From Nitrospirota bacterium (lineage in GTDB: Bacteria > UBA2233): a stretch of 39,245 nt of DNA. The notes under the pieces are model-generated. The model saw only the letters and a list, made by a program, of their open reading frames with translations, was not told the origin of the DNA and did no database searches. Positions 1,087-19,211 of the stretch are shown piece by piece (within the stretch, counting starts at the first letter, position 1; every line of letters begins with the position of its first letter). The translations under genes and the position numbers were made by a program. The stretch covers positions 62,001-101,245 of the forward strand of contig WOZJ01000057.1 in the NCBI GenBank assembly GCA_011620345.1, given 5' to 3'.

Positions 1087-1687
1087 GGTGCTTTAGCGGT
1101 GCGAACGAGACGCGGTGTTCCGGGCATGGACCGAACATCCTGACTCTTTCTACGTGATAGCATGTAGGATACCCCTTGTGTACGGCAAACCCGTATGCCG
1201 GATAGCGGGCATCGAGCTTTTCCATGAGCCTATCCCGCATGGTTTTTGCAAGGATGCTGGCCGCGGCGATCGTACCCGAGAGCATATCTCCTTTAGGAAG
1301 AAGAATGCAGGGAGCTTCCGCCCTAGGGTCTAGCGTGCCGTCCACCAAAAGAATCGAAGGGGAGCATGGAAGCTCATCGAGCGCCCTTTTTGCGGCCAAG
1401 CGGAAGGCTCTTGAGATCCCAAGCGTATCTATTTCCGATGCCAGCGCGAACCCTACGGCCCACAGGCTGTTGAGGCCTACGAGAAGCTTGTGGGCCTTTA
1501 GCCGCTGGCCAGGAGTAAGTTTTTTGGAATCATCGAGCGCAAGGCTCTCCATCGTCGGCGTGTATGTAAACACACCTACCGCCAAAGGCCCGGCAATGGG
1601 GCCTCTCCCCGCCTCGTCCATCCCTGCGAGGCTTAGGCTCGGATCGCCCTGAAATAGCCTGTGCTCTAGGGCATACCCTGCGGCCAA
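1067..1687 (-). CDS. rnhB: Ribonuclease HII
   Basis: GMDEAGRGPIAGP, DSKKL, VDG, KGD..IAAASILAK, HKGYPT, HRVSF; TTG start abuts rplS stop. Confidence 0.95.
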   Translation of the reverse strand: MAAGYALEHRLFQGDPSLSLAGMDEAGRGPIAGPLAVGVFTYTPTMESLALDDSKKLTPGQRLKAHKLLVGLNSLWAVGFALASEIDTLGISRAFRLAAKRALDELPCSPSILLVDGTLDPRAEAPCILLPKGDMLSGTIAAASILAKTMRDRLMEKLDARYPAYGFAVHKGYPTCYHVERVRMFGPCPEHRVSFAPLKHHEWQAC

Positions 1688-2877: not shown

Positions 2878-3390
2878 CTAGGGAAGGCAGGCAGGGTCGA
2901 AAACGACCAAGCGCTCTTCGATGCTGAGCTTATGAACGTAAGTATCGAGAAGGGGGATGAGCACTTCGTTTCGGCCCTCGTCCTGAACTACAAGAATGTC
3001 TAAGTTATGCGGCTTCATGACGCGGTTTACGGTTCCAAAATACCTGCCTTGGGTGTCGAAAGCACGGATACCCACTAAGTCGGAGCTGAAGAACTCCCCC
3101 TCTTGGAGTGAAGGTAGGTCTTCTTCGTGTACGAGAAGCGTGGCGCCCCGTAACTTCTCGGCCTGCTCCAGGGAGCATAGCCCCTCAAATTTCAATAGAA
3201 AGCGGCTGCCGTAAGGCTTTGCTGATTCAATCTTCAAGGACAAGCCTTGCACAAGGACACGGGAACCCTCTCGAAATAAATGGCCGTAGTCTGGCACGGC
3301 CTGAACCCAAACCTCGCCCTTTAGCCCTTTCGGCCTATTGATCTGGCCTATCGTCCGAAGATGAGACACCGTTCCATCAGACTTATTCAT
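2878..3390 (-). CDS. rimM: Ribosome maturation factor RimM (start ambiguous: ATG 3405, ATG 3390 or GTG 3369)
   Basis: IGQI..PKGLKGEV, LKFEG, DLP.L.EGEFF..DLVG, EVLIP; conserved position between khpA and trmD; the upstream ATGs lie inside an inserted element. Confidence 0.93.
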   Translation of the reverse strand: MNKSDGTVSHLRTIGQINRPKGLKGEVWVQAVPDYGHLFREGSRVLVQGLSLKIESAKPYGSRFLLKFEGLCSLEQAEKLRGATLLVHEEDLPSLQEGEFFSSDLVGIRAFDTQGRYFGTVNRVMKPHNLDILVVQDEGRNEVLIPLLDTYVHKLSIEERLVVFDPACLP

Positions 3391-3511
3391 TCTTGCTCGC
3401 TGCATGAACGAAGCTGACTTCCTGCTTCGTAGAGGCTGGTTTCACGCGGGCCTTGCGGCCTACGTCAGAGCCTTCCTCTCCACAGGCTGACACCGTGGAA
3501 CTCACGGCCAG
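3369..3511 (-). ncRNA. Putative TnpB omega-RNA (reRNA) scaffold
   Basis: Nested stems on the minus strand: CCGTG/CACGG hairpin, CCTG/CAGG, TGGA/TCTA, GGCT/AGCC, ACGTAGGCC-GCAA-GGCCCGCGT with GNRA loop; GCCTGTGGAG...GAAGCAGGAA scaffold signature; ends at the element right end. Confidence 0.6.
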
Positions 3512-3526
3512 GTTTCTCAAGTCCAT
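3383..3526 (-). pseudogene. tnpB: Remnant of tnpB C-terminal tail (47 codons)
   Basis: Translates as MDLRNLAVSSTVSACGEEGSDVGRKARVKPASTKQEVSFVHAASKNE, matching the NL.NLAVSSTVSACGE...S.KQE tail of IS607-type TnpB; no RuvC or zinc-finger domain remains. Confidence 0.7.
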
Positions 3527-3555
3527 ATTACATATGAATGCGCCAGAATAAGCAA
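3527..3555 (-). promoter_or_regulatory. Possible sigma70 promoter inside the element left end
   Basis: TTGCTT-N17-TGTAAT; predicted start near 3520, just upstream of the RNA scaffold. Confidence 0.35.
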
Positions 3556-3580
3556 CTACACCAGAAACTGTTGAACCCCA

Positions 3581-3841
3581 TTAGGCCATAGGCTCGATGA
3601 TCTCGAGGATTGCCCGCTTACGAACCTTGGCGGAGGCTGCCGACAAGATGGTCCGAATGGCTCGAGCCGTTCTGCCGTCTTTGCCTATAACTTTGCCAAG
3701 ATCCTCCTTCGCCACGCTCAACTCCAGGACGCAGCTTCGCTCCCCGTCTACCTCTTGGACGCGTACAGCGTCTGGGTTGTCAACGAGAACTCGCGCGATT
3801 TGCTCGACAAGATCTTTGAGGCTCTGATTTGCAATGGGCAT
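3581..3841 (-). CDS. khpA: KH-domain RNA-binding protein KhpA (YlqC/UPF0109)
   Basis: [28 protein letters not shown] (GxxG loop); ATG 3841 with GGAGG 6 nt upstream. Confidence 0.93.
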
Positions 3842-3868
3842 TCCCAACCTCCGCTTTGTGGTGGTGCG

Positions 3869-4144: not shown

Positions 4145-5479
4145 CTAGGGCATACCAGAAAGCAGCCCCCGCAATCCTTTACGATTGCCCGTAAGCTGTC
4201 CGACGAGCTTTTTGGTCTCTTCGAATTGTTTAAGTAGTTGATTGATCTCCTGAACCCTTGTGCCTGATCCAGAAGCGATGCGCTTCCTTCTGGACCCGTT
4301 TAGGATTTCAGGGCGTTGACGCTCTTGGCGTGTCATCGAGTTCAGAATGGCCTCAACGTGCTTGAAGCGCCCTTCCAGTTTGGCGGAATCTATCTCTGAG
4401 GCAACCTTGGAGAACCCTGGGATCATCCCCATGATGCCCGAGAGGGGCCCTAGCTTTTTCATGGTCCGGATCTGGTCGCGGAAGTCCTCGAGCGTGAAGC
4501 TCTTTGTACGGAGCTTTTTCTCGAGCTGTTTTGCGTGTTCTTCTTCGAAGGTTTCCTTCGCCCTCTCGATCAGCGTAAGGACATCGCCCATTCCAAGGAT
4601 CCTCGAAGCCATCCTCTCGGGGTGAAAGACCTCTAGGTCCGAGGGGCGTTCTCCCGTGCCGATGAGCTTGATCGGAACGCCCGTGATTTCTCGCATAGAG
4701 AGCGCACACCCACCCCTGGCGTCTCCGTCCATCTTTGTAAGGACAATGCCGGTAAGTCCTACCGCCTCATGGAACGTGCCGGCAAGCTTGAGGGCGTCTT
4801 GTCCCGTCATGGCATCTGCAACGAGCAAGACCTCTTTGGGTTGGATGCGTTGTTTCATCTGGACAAGCTCTTTCATGAGCGCTTCGTCAGCATGAAGACG
4901 TCCTTGGGTGTCCAGGATGAGCGTGTCGTACCGCGACGTCCTGAGGAAGTCGATAGCCTCCTCAGCGAGCGCAAGCGGGCTTTTTGGGCGTTTTCCCCAA
5001 GGATAGACGTGAACGTTGAGCGCCTTTGCGAGCGTGAGAAGCTGTTCGAGCGCCGCAGGACGCTTGACGTCCGTCGTGGCGAGGAGCGGCTCGAGCCGTT
5101 TGCGTTTCAGGTGGAGGGCCAGCTTTGCCGCCGTGGTCGTTTTACCCGAGCCCTGGACTCCTACAAGAAGGATGACGTGTGGAGGGGCGCCTTTCAAGGC
5201 GAGGTCTTGCGCTTCCGTACCGAGCAGCGCCTTAAGCTCTTCGTGGACAATCATCAGCAAGTGTTGGTCCGGGGTAAGCGATTCGAACACGCGTTGGCCT
5301 AAAGCCTTCTCGCGAACACGCTCCAAGAAGGCTCTGGCCACCTGAAAATGGACGTCCGCCTCAAGCAGTGCCCTCCGGATTTCCCGGAACGCCGCCTCGA
5401 TATGCCCTTCCTTGATGACACCCGTTCCCTTGAGGGTTCTCAGGGCCTCGTTTAGCCGCTCTTGCAGCCTTTCAAACAT
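4145..5479 (-). CDS. ffh: Signal recognition particle protein Ffh
   Basis: ALLEADV, GVQGSGKTTT, DTQGR, DAMTGQDA, TKMDGDARGG, RILGMGD, M domain RRKRIASGSG. Confidence 0.98.
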   Translation of the reverse strand: MFERLQERLNEALRTLKGTGVIKEGHIEAAFREIRRALLEADVHFQVARAFLERVREKALGQRVFESLTPDQHLLMIVHEELKALLGTEAQDLALKGAPPHVILLVGVQGSGKTTTAAKLALHLKRKRLEPLLATTDVKRPAALEQLLTLAKALNVHVYPWGKRPKSPLALAEEAIDFLRTSRYDTLILDTQGRLHADEALMKELVQMKQRIQPKEVLLVADAMTGQDALKLAGTFHEAVGLTGIVLTKMDGDARGGCALSMREITGVPIKLIGTGERPSDLEVFHPERMASRILGMGDVLTLIERAKETFEEEHAKQLEKKLRTKSFTLEDFRDQIRTMKKLGPLSGIMGMIPGFSKVASEIDSAKLEGRFKHVEAILNSMTRQERQRPEILNGSRRKRIASGSGTRVQEINQLLKQFEETKKLVGQLTGNRKGLRGLLSGMP

Positions 5480-7499: not shown

Positions 7500-8979
7500 A
7501 CGTCGCTTCGTCCATGTCCCTGAACTCGCCGATCGTGTCGGATGGGTCGCCGCCCACGAATAAATACGTGCCCACAAGCTGGAGCCATGGCTTGTACTTA
7601 TAGATAAGCTCCAAGCTCCCCACATAAGCCTTGTTCTCGATTTGGTACACGCCCTGAGGGTTGCATTCGATCCTTCCGTCCAGAAAGCTCGTTCGAAGGC
7701 CGAGGCCAACCCTGTGCTTGCTAGGTTCGGAAAAAAGGTCGCCCCCATGGGCCAAGATGACGTCCTGCGTAAACTGGCCCGAGAGGAAGGATCCGGAAGG
7801 CAAAAGAAGAAACTTTTGGGGAAGGAGATAGTCCAGCCCGACCCCCCAAGAAATGCTATCTTTTTTCTTTACGATGTCAGGCACCTCGATTCGGGTCTTT
7901 GATCCGAGCGAGCGTTCGTCTAGTAGGGCGTCGATCGCCCCTCGGACAAGTTGACGCGCGTAGTCGGTTCGCCAGAATGGCCCTTCTAAGTCCTTGTAGA
8001 CGTCTCGGTTGTACGGTCTTCCATGGAAGAATGCCCATTCGAACCGAAGCGTCGTGTCTCCAACGCTCCTTGTCAGGTCGGCCCCGAACATGTGCATGCG
8101 CGTGGAGGTAGGGTAGAGGTCGAGGTCTACCAGCGAGCGATAAAGGCCGCCCGATGGGAAAAGCCGAGTCGTGGCCCCTACGTCTGCGCTGAACACGGGA
8201 AAAGGGTCGAGCCCGGTAAAGTAGTATAGGTGCGTGTCAAACCCTGCCACGTGCTTTGAAAGTCTGAATCCGGTGCTGAAAGAAGAAAGAGCCCCTTCCT
8301 TACCCCAGCCGCGGAGGTTTTGCTGTACGGAGAATCCAGAGAGGAAGGGGTCCCCTTGGAAATACCCCCTCAGATCCTTTGCCACATCCAGTAGGGAAGG
8401 AAAAAAGCGATTCCCCTGCGTAGACAGCCGGTATGGGAAAAACACGGGCGCAAACACCCACTCCAGCTCGAACACGGGCAGGCTGTAGGCGTCGACCTTT
8501 ATGGCAGGAATGCCGATTTTTCGGTCGGCCTCGGGGAGCTCGACAAAGCGGCTGTAGTCTTCAGGGTTGAAAAGGTCCGTCGGCTGGTATTCGTCCAGAA
8601 CGCCCCAGCTGATCTTTTGCTTTCCGATCCGGACGTCAAAGTCTTTAAAAAAGAGGTCTAGGTAGAATTCGTTGACGTCGAGGTAACCCGGCTGGGTTTC
8701 AAACACAGAGAACGGCTTAAGGAAGGGACTTTTCTCCGTGGATGAATGCAGGATGTTGCCGTCGTAGCCCGTCTTGATTTCCGATTCGATCTTTGCGTCT
8801 GGGGAAAAGATAATTGAGGGGTTGAGCTTGAGCTCGGTCGAAGGATTTTCGGAGGGCGTGTTGGCGTTCGCTCGAATGCCGAAACGCTGCTCTAGCCTGC
8901 CCGTTAGGTCGGCCTCGATAGCAAGGGCACTGCTTGCGAAAAGCAGGATAAAAAACAAGGGGGTGGCAAGCTTTGGCAC
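7477..8979 (-). CDS. Outer-membrane beta-barrel protein, DUF1302-like
   Basis: Signal peptide ending ALA; EFYLD...DVRIGKQKISWG..D...P.D.FNP.D motif; amphipathic strands; C-terminal YLF beta-signal. Confidence 0.65.
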   Translation of the reverse strand: MPKLATPLFFILLFASSALAIEADLTGRLEQRFGIRANANTPSENPSTELKLNPSIIFSPDAKIESEIKTGYDGNILHSSTEKSPFLKPFSVFETQPGYLDVNEFYLDLFFKDFDVRIGKQKISWGVLDEYQPTDLFNPEDYSRFVELPEADRKIGIPAIKVDAYSLPVFELEWVFAPVFFPYRLSTQGNRFFPSLLDVAKDLRGYFQGDPFLSGFSVQQNLRGWGKEGALSSFSTGFRLSKHVAGFDTHLYYFTGLDPFPVFSADVGATTRLFPSGGLYRSLVDLDLYPTSTRMHMFGADLTRSVGDTTLRFEWAFFHGRPYNRDVYKDLEGPFWRTDYARQLVRGAIDALLDERSLGSKTRIEVPDIVKKKDSISWGVGLDYLLPQKFLLLPSGSFLSGQFTQDVILAHGGDLFSEPSKHRVGLGLRTSFLDGRIECNPQGVYQIENKAYVGSLELIYKYKPWLQLVGTYLFVGGDPSDTIGEFRDMDEATFMVRYLF

Positions 8980-16603: not shown

Positions 16604-19211
16604 GAAAGGGTGGACATGGGCCGTTTTTTTAGGATGGATCCTGTTGATGAAGGGTAGTGTGGGCGCTCAAGAACTCGGGGGGCGGCTAAGCTTCGAGGAG
16701 GCCAAGTCCCGCTCCTCCTTGATCCGCAACGTTCGCTATGAGGTTTTTCTGGATCTAACGGATCCGGGAGAAGAATTTCTTTCCAGGACCAAGGTGACCT
16801 TCGAGGCCCTGAACGCCAACGAGGGAACGTTTATCGATTTTGCCGCCAAAAAGGTGAACGAAGCCACTTTGAACGGCTCTTCCTTACCGCTTGGGTCTTT
16901 TGGCGACTCTAGACTCAAGATTACTCCGGTTCAGGGGCAAAATGAGCTGTGGGTTGAGGGGGTCGTTCCCTACGAGCACACGGGGGTGGGGTTGCATAAG
17001 TTTGTCGACCCGACCGACGGCAACGTGTATTTGCACACCCAGTTCGAGCCCTTCGATGCCCATAGGGTTTACGCCTGCTTCGACCAGCCCGATATCAAGG
17101 CGACTTTTGTTTTTCGCGTACGTGCCCCGAAAGGATGGCGCGTCGTCTCCAACCAAAGCGCCCTGCAAGCGGCTTCAGAAGGGCAGGAAAGCCAGGAATG
17201 GGCCGATTGGAGCTTCGAGCCCACGCCCCTTATCTCTACGTACGTTACGGCGTTGATCGCGGGCCCGTATGCGGAGGTACGCTCGGAGCACCAGGGTCTT
17301 CCGCTTGCCCTGTACGTGCGTAGGTCTCTTGAGGCCTATCTCGACCCCGAAGAGATCTTCGCAATAACAAAATCGGGGTTGGATTTCTTTGGCGAGCGCT
17401 TCGGCATTCTGTATCCATTTTCAAAGTACGACCAAGCGTTCGTGCCCGAATTCAGCGCGGGTGCCATGGAGAACGCCGGCCTCGTTACGTTCAACGAGCG
17501 CTACGTCTTTCGCTCGAAGGTAAGCGAGGCCTCAAGAGAAGGCAGGGCCAACACCATCCTGCACGAGATGGCCCATATGTGGTTCGGGGATTTGGTAACG
17601 ATGCGCTGGTGGGACGATCTTTGGCTGAACGAGAGCTTTGCCGACTTCATGGCAAGCTATGCGCTTAAGGGGGCAACACGCTTTAAGAACGCCTGGGCCC
17701 ATTTTGCCAACACGGAGAAGGCCCAAGCGCTCCTCCAAGATCAGATGAGCACGACGCACCCGATTGTGGCCCACTACCCGGACACCGAGAGCGTACGTCT
17801 CGGGTTTGACGCGATCACCTACCAAAAAGGTGCTAGCGCCCTAAAACAGCTTATGGCCTACGTTGAGGAGGAGGCTTTCTTTTCGGGACTCAAGCGCTAT
17901 CTTCAGGCGCATGCCCTTGGAAACGCCGAGCTTGCTGATTTTCTGGCCGCGCTTGAACAGGCCTCGGGCAGGGACTTGGGGGGGTGGGCTAGAGCCTGGT
18001 TGCAAACCCCCGGCGCGAACACGATCACCCCGGTTGTCGCTTACCACTCGGACAAGATCGATAGTGTAGCCCTAAGACAAGGTGCGCCTGCAGATCACCC
18101 GACGCTTAGGCCACATCGGTTAGGGGTTGGCCTGTACGCAAAGGTGGGCGGGCGCATGGTGCGGTCTCATGGCCTCATAAAAGACATCGAAGGAAAGAAC
18201 ACCCCCATTCCCGAGCTTGCTTCAGAACAAACCCCGGAAATCCTTCTGCCGAACGATGAGGACCTTACCTATGCCAAGATCCGGCTGGACCCAAAGAGCA
18301 GCAAAGCGGCCGAAAAGAGCCTAAGGCTCATTGAAGACCCTCTTGCGAGGGTGCTCCTTTGGGGGTGCTTTTGGGACATGACGCTCGATGCAGAGTATCC
18401 AACGAGCAGCTGGCTCAAGCTTTTCTACGGCCACGTTCGCTCCGAACCCGACCCTATGGTGCTCGATGCTCTTTTGAGGAGATCTGAGGACGCGCTCCTG
18501 CGCTTTACCGCCGTTGCACGCAGGGGAGAGTCCTGGGCAAGGTTTGCAAGGTTTGCAAAGGAGCGGATGGGGCTTAGCCAGCCCGGCTCCGACCAGCAGC
18601 TTAGCTGGGCCAAGGCGTTTTTTGACACGGCGTACGAAAAGGACCAGCTTTTGCTCATTAAGGGGTTGCTTGATGGAACCGAGCAGATTCCAGGGCTAAC
18701 GATGGATTTTGACCGGCGTTGGCAGGCGATTCTTACCCTTGCCAAGCGGGGGGAAGCGACTAAGAAGTCGATCCAAGAAGAGCTCGAGAAAGACCCAACG
18801 GATATGGGGCAACGGAATGCGGCCCAGGCACGAGCCGCTCTTCCTACTCCAGAGGCCAAGGCATTGGCTTGGAAAGAGGCTACGCAGAACCCTAATATCC
18901 CGTTAAAGACGAGGGAAGCGCTGGCCCTTGGGTTTTGGCAGCCATTCCAGGAGGACGTGCTCGCTCCCTACGCGACGCGTTACTTTGAGGAAGTTCCGAG
19001 CTTCTGGCAAAAGTTCGGGCCCGATGAGGCAATTGTTCTAACGAGAAGGCTTTTCCCCCGATTGTTCGTCAAAGAGGATGTTCTTCAAGCAGCCGAAAGG
19101 CTCCTTCAAGACTCAAAGCTTTCCTATGAGGCAAGGAGAATCTTGATGGAAGGCAAAGACGAGATCCGAAGGGCGCTTAAGGCCATGGCTTGCGACGAAC
19201 GGTCGTTATAA
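16587..19211 (+). CDS. pepN: Aminopeptidase N (M1 family, actinobacterial-type) with N-terminal signal peptide
   Basis: TQFEPFDAHRVYACFDQPD, GAMEN, HEMAH-x18-E (WLNESFA), YQKGAS; ERAP1-like C-terminal domain. Confidence 0.93.
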   Translation: MGGLGRKGWTWAVFLGWILLMKGSVGAQELGGRLSFEEAKSRSSLIRNVRYEVFLDLTDPGEEFLSRTKVTFEALNANEGTFIDFAAKKVNEATLNGSSLPLGSFGDSRLKITPVQGQNELWVEGVVPYEHTGVGLHKFVDPTDGNVYLHTQFEPFDAHRVYACFDQPDIKATFVFRVRAPKGWRVVSNQSALQAASEGQESQEWADWSFEPTPLISTYVTALIAGPYAEVRSEHQGLPLALYVRRSLEAYLDPEEIFAITKSGLDFFGERFGILYPFSKYDQAFVPEFSAGAMENAGLVTFNERYVFRSKVSEASREGRANTILHEMAHMWFGDLVTMRWWDDLWLNESFADFMASYALKGATRFKNAWAHFANTEKAQALLQDQMSTTHPIVAHYPDTESVRLGFDAITYQKGASALKQLMAYVEEEAFFSGLKRYLQAHALGNAELADFLAALEQASGRDLGGWARAWLQTPGANTITPVVAYHSDKIDSVALRQGAPADHPTLRPHRLGVGLYAKVGGRMVRSHGLIKDIEGKNTPIPELASEQTPEILLPNDEDLTYAKIRLDPKSSKAAEKSLRLIEDPLARVLLWGCFWDMTLDAEYPTSSWLKLFYGHVRSEPDPMVLDALLRRSEDALLRFTAVARRGESWARFARFAKERMGLSQPGSDQQLSWAKAFFDTAYEKDQLLLIKGLLDGTEQIPGLTMDFDRRWQAILTLAKRGEATKKSIQEELEKDPTDMGQRNAAQARAALPTPEAKALAWKEATQNPNIPLKTREALALGFWQPFQEDVLAPYATRYFEEVPSFWQKFGPDEAIVLTRRLFPRLFVKEDVLQAAERLLQDSKLSYEARRILMEGKDEIRRALKAMACDERSL

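What the first reader, a model, noticed from the sequence alone, without database searches (positions are those of the whole stretch)
3345..3555. Orphan TnpB omega-RNA whose guide is the 5' end of rimM
Seen: the insert retains the structured part (CCGTG/CACGG hairpin, CCTG/CAGG and TGGA/TCTA stems, GGCT/AGCC, a GCAA-capped hairpin), preceded by TTGCTT-N17-TGTAAT that would start transcription near 3520. The nuclease gene itself is gone. Known: TnpB guide RNAs overlap the tnpB 3' end and the element right end, and take the guide from the flanking host DNA; nuclease-dead TnpB derivatives can act as RNA-guided repressors. Inference: this locus could make a trans-acting guide (TGTCTCATCTTCGGACGATA...). 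With a TnpB encoded elsewhere it could cut the excised allele (target preceded by TAATGG) and so lock the element in place, or it could have been domesticated to regulate rimM-trmD-rplS.
Basis: partly seen in the sequence, partly recalled or inferred. Interest (0 to 1): 0.8.

Follow-up and report, generated by a model that had tools for sequence, protein, structure and literature searches.

The report
Guide-RNA-only IS607 mini-transposon at rimM
A 207-base non-autonomous remnant of an IS607-type transposon sits exactly at the rimM start codon; it has lost its genes but keeps its promoter-bearing left end and the full TnpB guide-RNA scaffold, a known kind of selfish element and not a host regulator.

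Summary
Window 3369-3575 (minus strand) is a 207-bp insertion between khpA and rimM. The sister species has the empty site ...ATGGGG|TGTCTCAT....

The insert has two parts. The left part is about 51 nt of an IS607 left end, at the position of the tnpA promoter in full-length relatives. The right part is the last ~45 codons of tnpB plus the right end.

A metagenome scan returned 41 loci, 39 homologous to the insert. Many carry a full tnpB, and some a serine-recombinase tnpA. In these the same 150-nt RNA scaffold overlaps the tnpB 3' end and stops at GGAACGG, followed by variable flank.

The scaffold structure has strong covariation: 13 of 40 pairs show compensatory changes and 97% of cells pair. 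Rfam RAGATH-18 matches only below threshold (24.4 bits against 44.9).

The element has at least three copies in this genome and inserts after GGG.

No cognate tnpB or tnpA is in the assembly; the two TnpB genes present are distant. Nothing supports domestication: the insertion is lineage-specific and two stems carry mismatches.

Verdict: a new member of a known kind, the guide-RNA-bearing non-autonomous IS element. Moderate interest.

The parts
3369..3575 (-). 207-bp non-autonomous IS607-family element: left end, tnpB 3' remnant with omegaRNA, right end
   Evidence: Precise insertion relative to the empty site in G001. Further copies sit at G000 contig ends C60, C22 and C39. Positions ~54-207 are homologous to 39 of 41 metagenome loci.
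3576..3581 (-). Target/TAM-like motif ATGGGG immediately 5' of the left end; its A is the last base of the khpA stop codon TAA
   Evidence: The same ATGGGG precedes the C39/C22 copy. GGG precedes the left end at all 12 junctions examined. This matches the IS607 GG core and TGGG TAM reported in 10.1101/2023.11.20.567912.
3525..3575 (-). Left end (~51 nt), homologous to the left end and tnpA promoter region of full-length elements; -35-like TTGCTT 3554-3549, -10-like TGTAAT 3531-3526
   Evidence: Read by eye against the left ends of L019, L026, L034, L046 and L050. The promoter scan did not flag it. The C60 copy has TAGAAT as its -10.
3383..3526 (-). 47-codon ORF, the remnant of the tnpB C-terminus that follows the RuvC-III motif; the deletion junction is near 3524/3525
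   Evidence: tblastn with the L042 TnpB: residues 357-395, 79% identity, E 2.5e-12. Alignment A2. No Pfam family matches it.
3369..3519 (-). omegaRNA/reRNA scaffold (151 nt): hairpin 1 (3493-3507), RAGATH-18-like three-tier stem with a GCAA-capped hairpin (3419-3486), long 3' hairpin (3376-3418), single-stranded tail GGAACGG (3369-3375)
   Evidence: RNAalifold on 22 sequences gave 40 pairs, 13 with compensatory changes. 97% of cells pair, against 86.6% in shuffles and 26-45% in slid controls. Model R1 scores it 156.5 bits. The window copy has 2 broken pairs, A.C and A.A.
3419..3486 (-). RAGATH-18-like core
   Evidence: Rfam RF03064: 24.4 bits (gathering score 44.9), E 0.029 locally and 0.024 genome-wide. 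The same position scores 26-33 bits in 10 of 14 related loci.
3349..3368 (-). Predicted 20-nt guide region: the first bases after the right end, covering rimM codons 1-7
   Evidence: Family conservation stops at GGAACGG and the flanks are unrelated in all loci. This 20-mer occurs once in the genome and is preceded by ACGG, not the TAM.
2878..3369 (-). rimM; its GTG start (3369-3367) uses the last G of the element
   Evidence: Pfam RimM N-terminal and PRC domains, with the domain starting at residue 6. G001 uses the same GTG 4 nt after the khpA stop.
3581..3847 (-). khpA (KH-domain protein), upstream gene of the operon ffh-rpsP-khpA-rimM-trmD-rplS
   Evidence: Pfam KH_KhpA-B, E 2.3e-25. ORF map.

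Best explanation
Window 3369-3575 (minus strand) is a miniature, non-autonomous derivative of an IS607-family insertion sequence.

Origin. An internal deletion removed tnpA and almost all of tnpB. It fused the ~51-nt left end, which corresponds to the tnpA promoter region of full-length relatives, to the last ~155 nt of the element. Those ~155 nt encode the complete TnpB guide-RNA scaffold (omegaRNA/reRNA, RAGATH-18-like).

Mobility. The mini-element was moved in trans by a serine-recombinase TnpA. It landed after a GGGG motif that lies between the khpA stop codon and the rimM GTG start. No target duplication was made.

Transcription. RNA would be made either from the captured left-end promoter or by read-through of the ffh-rpsP-khpA operon, which has the same orientation. 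That RNA carries the scaffold followed by the first ~20 nt of rimM as its guide.

Function. With a cognate TnpB supplied in trans, this RNA would direct cleavage of the empty allele (GGGG + TGTCTCAT...). The occupied allele, where ACGG precedes the target, would be spared. The result would favour retention of the element by recombinational repair.

Status here. No cognate TnpB or TnpA is found in this assembly, so the RNA is most likely idle. The element is best read as a recent selfish insertion that the host tolerates because the rimM start codon was regenerated.

Shown: the insertion, the homology to IS607 tnpB/omegaRNA, the RNA structure, the target motif and the multiple copies. Inferred: transcription, TnpB binding, homing in trans and neutrality for rimM.
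For: Insertion:
- The empty site in the same-genus genome G001 defines a precise 207-bp insertion with GG at both junctions.

Homology to IS607 elements:
- A metagenome scan with a 20-mer of the element returned 41 loci. 39 are homologous to element positions ~54-207 at 75-88% identity; 2 are chance hits.
- In 15 of the 21 distinct loci in alignment A1, an open frame runs into the scaffold. It is 360 aa or more, or runs to the contig end, and ends ...KPAS.KQEVSF.
- L055 carries tnpA (Pfam MerR + Resolvase) and tnpB (OrfB_IS605, Cas12f1-like TNB, HTH_OrfB_IS605).
- The window's 47-codon ORF aligns to the TnpB C-terminus: 79% identity over 39 residues, E 2.5e-12.
- The left end is homologous to the left ends of full-length elements.

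RNA structure:
- 40 pairs, 13 with compensatory changes.
- 97.0% of cells pair, against 86.6 +/- 0.7% in shuffles (0 of 500 reach the observed value).
- Covariation score 0.341 against 0.152. Slid controls pair 26-45%.
- Conservation ends at GGAACGG and the flanks are unrelated, as expected for scaffold followed by guide.

Agreement with published IS607 rules:
- GGG precedes the left end at 12 of 12 junctions read.
- The right end finishes in ACGG. Published values are a GG core dinucleotide, a TGGG TAM and a scaffold ending UCGG (passages of 10.1101/2023.11.20.567912).
- The layout of 5' flank, RAGATH-18 core and 3' flank matches Ren et al. (PMC11061315).

Mobility of the mini-form:
- Further G000 copies lie at C60 (includes the deletion junction), C39/C22 and in contigs of public runs.
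- One of those copies sits at a site that is empty in G000 (C61).
- Summed contig depth inside the element is 3-25 times that of the flanks in three DNA runs.

A second, independent guide-only form:
- A 315-bp mini-element keeps the left end and the whole scaffold at two other sites (L017 = L022; L035).
Against: - The Rfam RAGATH-18 match is below the curated threshold (24.4 against 44.9 bits), so Rfam alone would not call it.
- The 20-mer used for the metagenome scan forces that stretch to be invariant in the alignment, which inflates apparent conservation there.
- The window sequence is part of model R1, so its 156.5 bits is not an independent test.
- No cognate tnpB, Resolvase-type tnpA or Y1 tnpA was found in G000. 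The trans-homing step therefore has no demonstrated partner in this genome.
- The promoter is weak by consensus and the scan tool did not report it.
- No RNA data exist for this locus. The one RNA-library contig (X15) is another copy, and a contig cannot show transcription.
- The window scaffold has two non-canonical pairs. Orphan copies carry more broken pairs (2, 6, 7; 4 in the copy linked to a tnpB pseudogene) than gene-linked copies (mostly 0-1, one with 3). This suggests decay and not maintained function.
- The C60 copy has an unexplained extra ~25 nt at its left end and no GGG directly before the conserved start.
Confidence: 0.85

Rival explanations
1. The guide is in active use. A cognate full-length IS607 element (tnpA-tnpB) lies in an unassembled part of this genome, for instance in the gap between contigs C39 and C22, whose ends carry the element's two termini. 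Its TnpB would load the rimM-adjacent omegaRNA in trans and actively protect this insertion from loss.
For: - Only 5 nt of the left end (C39) and 54 nt of the right end (C22) of that copy are assembled, so its interior is unknown.
- Contigs of three DNA runs that hold this region branch at 3522 into a tnpB reading frame (...HDRDVNAAI). They carry the same two sequence variants as the C22 copy (3399 G>A and a 1-nt deletion at 3401).
- Insertion sequences are often missing from draft assemblies.
Against: - The tnpB-linked branch cannot be assigned to this organism. In X1 its depth (29.6) exceeds that of the G000-like flanks (4-8).
- The flank of one RE-containing contig of that variant (loose end at 3368 in X1 and X2) is not in G000, and neither is the tnpB branch sequence.
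- No tnpB or tnpA of this family is in any of the 72 contigs.
- The window copy has two broken stem pairs.
Confidence: 0.25
2. The main effect at this locus is on the host. The element acts as a mobile promoter and 5' leader that now drives or modulates rimM-trmD-rplS independently of the upstream ffh-rpsP-khpA genes. The insertion broke the tight khpA-rimM juxtaposition, where the stop and start codons are 4 nt apart in the sister species.
For: - The left-end promoter region points into rimM, and there is no terminator-like site between it and rimM.
- The khpA stop and the rimM start are 4 nt apart in G001 and 211 nt apart here.
- The GTG start is regenerated from the element's last G.
- The other mini-element type also sits inside a translation operon in the same orientation (rpsL-rpsG, L022).
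Against: - The promoter matches 8 of 12 consensus positions and was not flagged.
- No expression data exist.
- The insertion sites are explained by the GGG target motif alone.
- This would be a side effect and would not account for conservation of the RNA scaffold.
Confidence: 0.15
3. A domesticated RNA-guided regulator. A nuclease-dead TnpB relative (TldR-like) would use this guide to bind the rimM 5' end and repress rimM-trmD-rplS.
For: TnpB-derived repressors with adjacent guides exist (titles and abstracts seen). The guide does match the 5' end of an operon gene.
Against: - Any TnpB-family guide matches the DNA next to its right end by construction. Here that DNA is preceded by ACGG and not the TAM, so the occupied allele should not be bound.
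- No nuclease-dead TnpB is present. Both genomic TnpBs keep the aligned D, E and D columns and are only 21-23% identical to the family TnpB in the alignment (24-29% over partial tblastn matches).
- The insertion is absent from the sister species.
- The same mini-element sits at unrelated sites.
- The scaffold shows two broken pairs.
Confidence: 0.03

Closest known systems
IS607-family TnpB reRNA containing the RAGATH-18 motif (ISFba1; Ren et al., Cell Res 2024, PMC11061315; passages and sections 6 and 10 read)
   Same: - Three-part scaffold: a 5' flank hairpin, a RAGATH-18-type core with the conserved ...CUGUGGAG... / ...GAAGCAGGAA motifs, and a 3' flank hairpin.
- The guide is taken from the DNA just beyond the right end.
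- The TAM is G-rich.
- The element family carries a serine-recombinase tnpA.
   Different: - The core scores only 24-33 bits against Rfam RF03064 (threshold 44.9) in this family.
- Here the scaffold overlaps the tnpB 3' coding end, whereas the ISFba1 reRNA is described as fully downstream of the gene.
- The 3' flank is 50 nt, not 64.
- The TAM is GGG(G), not AGGAG or GAGGG.
- The family's TnpB is closer to ISDra2 TnpB (E 1e-69) than to chain 8iaz (E 1e-50).
- In the window, the tnpB gene is absent.
IS607-family CboIStron TnpA(S)/TnpB system (Zedaveinyte et al., preprint 10.1101/2023.11.20.567912; passages read)
   Same: - GG core dinucleotide at both junctions.
- Target and TAM of the TGGG type.
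- The scaffold ends in NCGG, so the occupied site differs from the TAM at position -3.
- Precise excision and integration without target duplication.
- A protein-free mini-IS can be mobilised in trans.
   Different: - No group I intron is present here.
- The mini-IS in that work was engineered; the element here is a natural deletion derivative present in several copies.
PATE-like, protein-free IS200/IS605 derivatives that encode omegaRNAs (Meers et al., preprint 10.1101/2023.03.14.532601; passages read)
   Same: Both are short non-autonomous elements that keep both transposon ends and an omegaRNA. That RNA would have to be used in trans by a TnpB encoded elsewhere.
   Different: - Those elements are moved by a Y1 (HUH) transposase as single-stranded DNA and have palindromic ends.
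- This one belongs to the serine-recombinase IS607 family and has no terminal palindromes.
- It has the tnpA promoter region fused directly to the omegaRNA.
TldR, TnpB-like nuclease-dead repressors (seen only as titles and abstracts)
   Same: A TnpB-type guide RNA whose guide matches a host gene region.
   Different: No dead TnpB gene is adjacent or elsewhere in the assembly. The guide-target match is the automatic right-flank match of a transposon. The insertion is not conserved in the sister species.

Membership tests
Rfam RAGATH-18 (RF03064) | Covariance-model score at or above the gathering score (44.9 bits) | tested here: not met
   24.4 bits at window 3419-3486 (-), E 0.029. It is the best hit in the whole genome, E 0.024. 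10 of 14 related loci score 26-33 bits at the same position.
Rfam RAGATH-18 (RF03064) | Outer stem plus conserved internal-loop motifs (CUGUGGAG ... GAAGCAGGAA) | tested here: met
   The cmscan alignment matches model positions 1-12 and 55-71; the inner 42 positions are replaced. These columns are invariant in the family, but the 3' motif (GAAGCAGGAA) lies inside the 20-mer used for the search.
TnpB omegaRNA / reRNA | Encoded at or overlapping the 3' end of tnpB and running to the transposon right end | tested here: met
   In full-length relatives the tnpB frame ends inside the scaffold. In the window only the last ~45 codons remain.
TnpB omegaRNA / reRNA | Conserved secondary structure supported by covariation | tested here: met
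   13 of 40 pairs have compensatory changes. 97% of cells pair. Shuffle and slide controls are far lower.
TnpB omegaRNA / reRNA | The scaffold ends at the element boundary and is followed by a locus-specific guide | tested here: met
   Conservation stops at GGAACGG in all complete loci and the flanks are unrelated. The boundary equals the insertion boundary seen in G001.
TnpB omegaRNA / reRNA | A discrete transcript that binds TnpB and guides TAM-dependent DNA cleavage | not testable with these tools
   Only assembled contigs of public runs were available. These cannot show RNA ends or expression.
IS607 family (as a derivative) | Serine-recombinase TnpA (MerR-type HTH + resolvase domain) with tnpB | tested here: not met
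   Met in relatives: L055 tnpA has Pfam MerR + Resolvase, and tnpB follows it. Not met in the window element or anywhere in G000: PF00239 gave 0 matches, and tblastn gave no tnpA. The window element is therefore filed as a non-autonomous derivative, not as an IS607.
IS607 family (as a derivative) | GG core dinucleotide at both junctions, no target-site duplication, no terminal inverted repeats, G-rich target motif | tested here: met
   Empty site ATGGGG|TGTC, filled site GGGG|TTCAAC...AACGG|TGTC. GGG| precedes the left end at 12 of 12 junctions read. The feature definitions come from passages read.
MITE / non-autonomous mini-IS | Short, no intact gene, both ends of the parent element, several copies with the same internal deletion, insertion polymorphism | tested here: met
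   207 bp. The C60 copy includes the same deletion junction. There is a C39/C22 copy. The X15 contig carries the same form at a site that is empty in G000 (C61). The site is empty in G001.
TldR-type domesticated guide system | A nuclease-dead TnpB homologue encoded with the guide | tested here: not met
   Only two TnpB genes are present (C40, C72). Both keep the D/E/D columns shared with the family TnpBs, both are distant (21-23% identity), and neither is near the element.

The most novel reading that the evidence does not exclude
Guide-only IS607 mini-elements may be a distinct parasitic layer, not mere debris. Two independent deletion lineages exist: the 207-bp form here, and a 315-bp form between rpsL and rpsG and at one other site. 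Each kept exactly the promoter-bearing left end fused to a complete omegaRNA. They could therefore borrow both the TnpA (to move) and the TnpB (to be restored after excision) of full-length elements. In addition, the G-rich target motif would place them preferentially just upstream of start codons in highly transcribed operons, which guarantees guide expression by read-through.
Probability: 0.2. Interest if true: 0.6.

Novelty: new member of a known kind. Interest (0 to 1): 0.4.

Why it matters
This is a clean natural example of the guide-RNA half of a TnpB system travelling without its nuclease. Both boundaries are defined, an empty site is available, a covariation-supported RNA structure has been obtained, and full-length parents are identified.

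If such guide-only elements really are retained by TnpB supplied in trans, they bear on two questions. One is how RNA-guided homing shapes transposon ecology. The other is how guide and nuclease became separable modules on the path to CRISPR-like systems.

For genome annotation, it shows two things. Below-threshold RAGATH-18 matches can mark real omegaRNAs of a divergent IS607 subfamily. And a 47-codon ORF upstream of rimM is a tnpB relic, not a gene.

For the host, an insertion exactly at the rimM start codon, inside an operon that also carries trmD and rplS, has been tolerated.

Tried and rejected
Searches and scans that added nothing:
- The Rfam gathering-threshold scan of the window found only two tRNAs.
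- MFE folding of 3345-3580 is no more stable than shuffles on either strand (z 0.15 and -1.29). Single-sequence folding gave no support; the support comes from covariation.
- The 207-bp element searched as DNA in 60 other genomes gave only two ~20-nt chance matches, and nothing in G001.
- The earlier-findings look-ups returned nothing.
- BLAST of the left 60 nt against the metagenome loci gave only short, insignificant hits. The left-end homology was instead found with a short motif and read by eye.

Ideas rejected:
- The two TnpB genes of this genome (C40, C72) as cognate partners. They are 24-29% identical to the family TnpB over partial tblastn matches, nearest to Cas12f-like chains in the PDB, have their own CCCCGG..TTTAG.. 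hairpin ends, and have no RAGATH-18-like RNA.
- The empty-site joint in run X2 (skip 3367->3575) as evidence of excision in this strain. Its depth (8.3) equals that of a ~96%-identical co-occurring strain (record 13, 4 differences in 103 nt), and its shorter side is only 27 nt. It probably comes from the sister lineage.
- The in-frame ATGs inside the element (3405, 3390) as new rimM starts. The upstream one is out of frame in the C22 copy, and the ATG is not conserved across the family.

Inconclusive probes:
- Of the five probes from loose ends of public-run contigs, four were not in G000: three flanks and the tnpB branch. The fifth, the X15 flank, matched C61.
- RNA-library run X15 holds a copy of the mini-element at another site. 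As a contig in a library that may contain DNA, it says nothing about transcription.

Literature searches:
- Four searches and passages of five papers found omegaRNA-bearing PATEs and orphan RAGATH-18 RNAs.
- None gave an explicit description of natural IS607-derived guide-only mini-elements.
- Supplementary tables were not available. Table S1 of PMC11061315, for example, may list such loci.
Full report
LOCUS AND OBSERVATION

The window's minus strand carries the operon ffh (5479-4145), rpsP (4102-3869), khpA (KH-domain gene, 3847-3581), rimM (3369-2878), trmD and rplS. The ORF map is; Pfam identities for five of these genes (all but ffh, which I named from its translation) are.

About 210 bases lie between khpA and rimM. 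The same-genus genome G001 lacks them. There the junction reads ...GGCCTGATGGGG|TGTCTCATCTTCGG..., with the rimM GTG start 4 nt after the khpA stop.

In the window the junctions are ...TAATGGGG|TTCAACAG... and ...GATGGAACGG|TGTCTCATC.... The insert is therefore 207 bp (3575..3369), with a GG at each junction and no target duplication.

WHAT THE INSERT IS

Rfam gives only a below-threshold RAGATH-18 match at 3486..3419: 24.4 bits against a gathering score of 44.9, E 0.029. It is nonetheless the best RAGATH-18 match in the whole 1.8-Mb genome.

The decisive evidence came from relatives. A scan of public metagenome contigs with a 20-mer from the element returned 41 loci. Of these, 39 align to element positions ~54-207 at 75-88% identity. 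L051 and L052 are chance matches.

In many loci a long open frame runs into this region and ends ...SACGE.GSG...KPAS.KQEVSF...
- L055 carries a 214-aa tnpA with Pfam MerR and Resolvase domains, followed by a 407-aa tnpB with OrfB_IS605, Cas12f1-like TNB and HTH_OrfB_IS605 domains.
- L042 carries tnpB alone.
These are IS607-family elements.

The window's 47-codon ORF (3526..3383) aligns to the extreme C-terminus of these TnpBs, just after the RuvC-III motif. tblastn with the L042 TnpB matched residues 357-395 at 79% identity, E 2.5e-12.

The first ~51 nt of the insert are homologous to the left ends of the full-length elements. Those begin (T/C)T(C/T)GAACAG.. and contain the -35/-10 region just upstream of tnpA.

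The insert is therefore an internal-deletion derivative: left end with the tnpA promoter region, fused near 3524/3525 to the last ~155 nt of the element.

THE RNA

I aligned the window scaffold (3519..3369) with 21 distinct relatives. RNAalifold predicts four structural parts:
- a three-tier stem whose outer part is the RAGATH-18-like CCUGU/GCAGG, with an inner GCAA-capped hairpin;
- a long 3' hairpin;
- a single-stranded tail, GGAACGG.

Of the 40 pairs, 13 have compensatory double changes. On the named structure, 97.0% of cells pair, against 86.6% in column shuffles (0 of 500 reach the observed value) and 26-45% when partners are slid by 1-3 columns. The covariation score is 0.341 against 0.152.

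One caveat applies: the 20-mer used for the search is invariant by ascertainment.

Sequence conservation stops at GGAACGG in every complete locus, and the flanks are unrelated. This is the signature of scaffold followed by guide.

The layout matches the reRNA of RAGATH-18-associated IS607 TnpBs described by Ren et al. (PMC11061315), which has a 37-nt 5' flank, a 73-nt core, a 64-nt 3' flank and then the guide. Here the 5' flank is ~33 nt if transcription starts near 3519, the core is 68 nt and the 3' flank is 50 nt.

TGGA/TCTA is not supported by the relatives, and GGCT/AGCC is only partly supported.

TARGET MOTIF AND FAMILY RULES

GGG directly precedes the left end at all 12 junctions I could read:
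- the window (ATGGGG);
- the C39/C22 copy, with its empty site in G001 (ATGGGG);
- a copy in run X15, whose site is empty in G000 contig C61 (AAAAGGGG);
- one further flank in run X3;
- L019, L026, L034, L046, L050 and L031;
- the two sites of a second mini-element type.

The right end finishes in ACGG. This fits the published rules for another IS607 element: a strict GG core dinucleotide, a TGGG target and TAM, a scaffold ending UCGG, and discrimination between the occupied site and the empty site at position -3 (passages of 10.1101/2023.11.20.567912).

The 20-nt predicted guide occurs once in the genome, where it is preceded by ACGG.

COPIES AND MOBILITY

Within G000, pieces of further copies end three contigs:
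- C60:1-96 has 97% identity and includes the same deletion junction.
- C22:1-54 has 96% identity.
- C39 ends 5 nt into the left end.

The C60 copy and the C39/C22 copy map to different places in G001, so there are at least three copies.

I laid contigs of three DNA runs and one RNA-library run on the region.
- Summed depth inside the element is 3-25 times that of the flanks.
- Several other flanks appear.
- A contig in X15 carries the same 207-bp form at the C61 site.
- At 3522, a branch continues into a tnpB frame (...HDRDVNAAI) in all three DNA runs.

Close full-length relatives therefore co-occur in the same communities. They cannot be assigned to this genome, however. The probes for the tnpB branch and for three further flanks seen as loose ends are absent from G000.

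A 207-bp skip seen in X2 most likely belongs to a ~96%-identical sister strain.

IS THERE A PARTNER NUCLEASE?

G000 is 96.8% complete in 72 contigs. It has no Resolvase-domain gene and no Y1 transposase.

It has two TnpB genes: C40 (383 aa) and C72 (385 aa). Both keep the aligned D, E and D columns. However, they are only 21-23% identical to the family TnpB in the alignment (24-29% over partial tblastn matches), are nearest to Cas12f-like chains in the PDB, have their own hairpin ends, and have no RAGATH-18-like RNA.

The family TnpB (L055) is nearest to ISDra2 TnpB (8bf8, E 1e-69) and next to chain 8iaz (E 1e-50).

The sister species G001 has a full tnpB that is 38% identical to the family, with a related omegaRNA scoring 42.5 bits on R1. 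G000 has no counterpart.

The unassembled interior of the C39/C22 copy leaves this open.

FUNCTION

The best-supported reading is a selfish, non-autonomous IS607 mini-element whose RNA would work only with a TnpB supplied in trans. This is the role proposed for omegaRNA-bearing PATEs of IS200/IS605 (passage of 10.1101/2023.03.14.532601). Ren et al. also report that only 64% of RAGATH-18 RNAs lie next to an IS607 TnpB. Orphan guides are therefore known in kind.

The element lies in the same orientation as the operon, so the scaffold will be transcribed at least by read-through. The left-end promoter is weak by consensus (8 of 12) and the scan tool did not report it.

Signs of relaxed constraint argue against a maintained or domesticated function.
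- The window scaffold has 2 non-canonical pairs of 40.
- The other gene-less copies have 6 and 7, and a copy linked to a tnpB pseudogene has 4.
- Of the 15 gene-linked copies, 11 have 0, 2 have 1, one has 3, and one is cut off by its contig end.

The insertion is absent from the sister species, and the same mini-element sits at unrelated sites. I give the domesticated-regulator idea about 3%.

A SECOND GUIDE-ONLY FORM

A different 315-bp mini-element exists, with a different deletion junction and a different parental subfamily. It also keeps the promoter-bearing left end and the entire scaffold. It sits between rpsL and rpsG in L017/L022 and at another site in L035.

This recurrence is the basis of the most novel reading not excluded: guide-only elements that exploit both TnpA and TnpB in trans. 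The higher mismatch load of these copies counts against it.

NOVELTY AND SCORE

The element is a new member of a known kind, the guide-RNA-bearing non-autonomous IS derivative. Here the parent is a divergent, Rfam-subthreshold IS607 subfamily.

Four literature searches and passages of five papers gave no explicit description of natural IS607-derived guide-only mini-elements. Supplementary tables could not be consulted.

The more exciting functional options remain unsupported. Interest: 0.4.

Noticed in passing
L022 12003-12317 (same element as L017 185-500); L035 3594-3908: A second, independent guide-only mini-element of 315 bp. It joins the left end and the first tnpA codons to the last ~75 codons of tnpB and the full scaffold. 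In L022 it lies between rpsL and rpsG in the same orientation as those genes. Both sites are preceded by GGG.
   Followed up: partly
L059 1400-2854 (-), which is G001:C19; RNA match at 1501-1641 (-): The sister species carries an intact-looking tnpB that is 38% identical to the L042/L055 TnpBs. A related RAGATH-18-like omegaRNA overlaps its 3' end (R1 42.5 bits). G000 has no counterpart.
   Followed up: partly
G000 C72:149-1306 (L015) and C40:37653-38804 (L016 1012-2163): Two stand-alone TnpB genes of a Cas12f-like clade with conserved D/E/D columns. Each is flanked by CCCCGG..TTTAG..-type hairpins. The C72 copy lies just after what looks like the 3' end of a tRNA gene (read by eye, not scanned) at the contig start. 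The C40 copy lies at a contig end.
   Followed up: partly
G000 C60:97-125 (reverse strand), just left of the C60 element copy: This copy has about 25 extra bases between the host sequence shared with G001 (ending ...GAAGG) and the conserved start of the element, and there is no GGG directly before that start. The matching right flank is seen in run X3, but it is missing from the G000 assembly.
   Followed up: partly
G000 contig ends C41 (~7830-7861), C2 (~17093-17131), C60 (~4907-4970) and C16 (~1800-1833): Another short repeat, shared with G001:C11, recurs at or near several contig ends. It probably marks a different repeated element that also breaks the assembly.
   Followed up: no
L055 7775-7796 and window 3390-3369: In one subfamily the right end contains ATGA(A/G)TAAGTCTGATGGAACGG. 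Its ATG happens to be in frame with the downstream host gene in both cases, giving spurious N-terminal extensions (MNKSDGT.. and MSKSDGT..) in ORF lists.
   Followed up: partly
L050 and L028: Two full-length or tnpB-only elements of this family lie next to clusters of tRNA genes.
   Followed up: no
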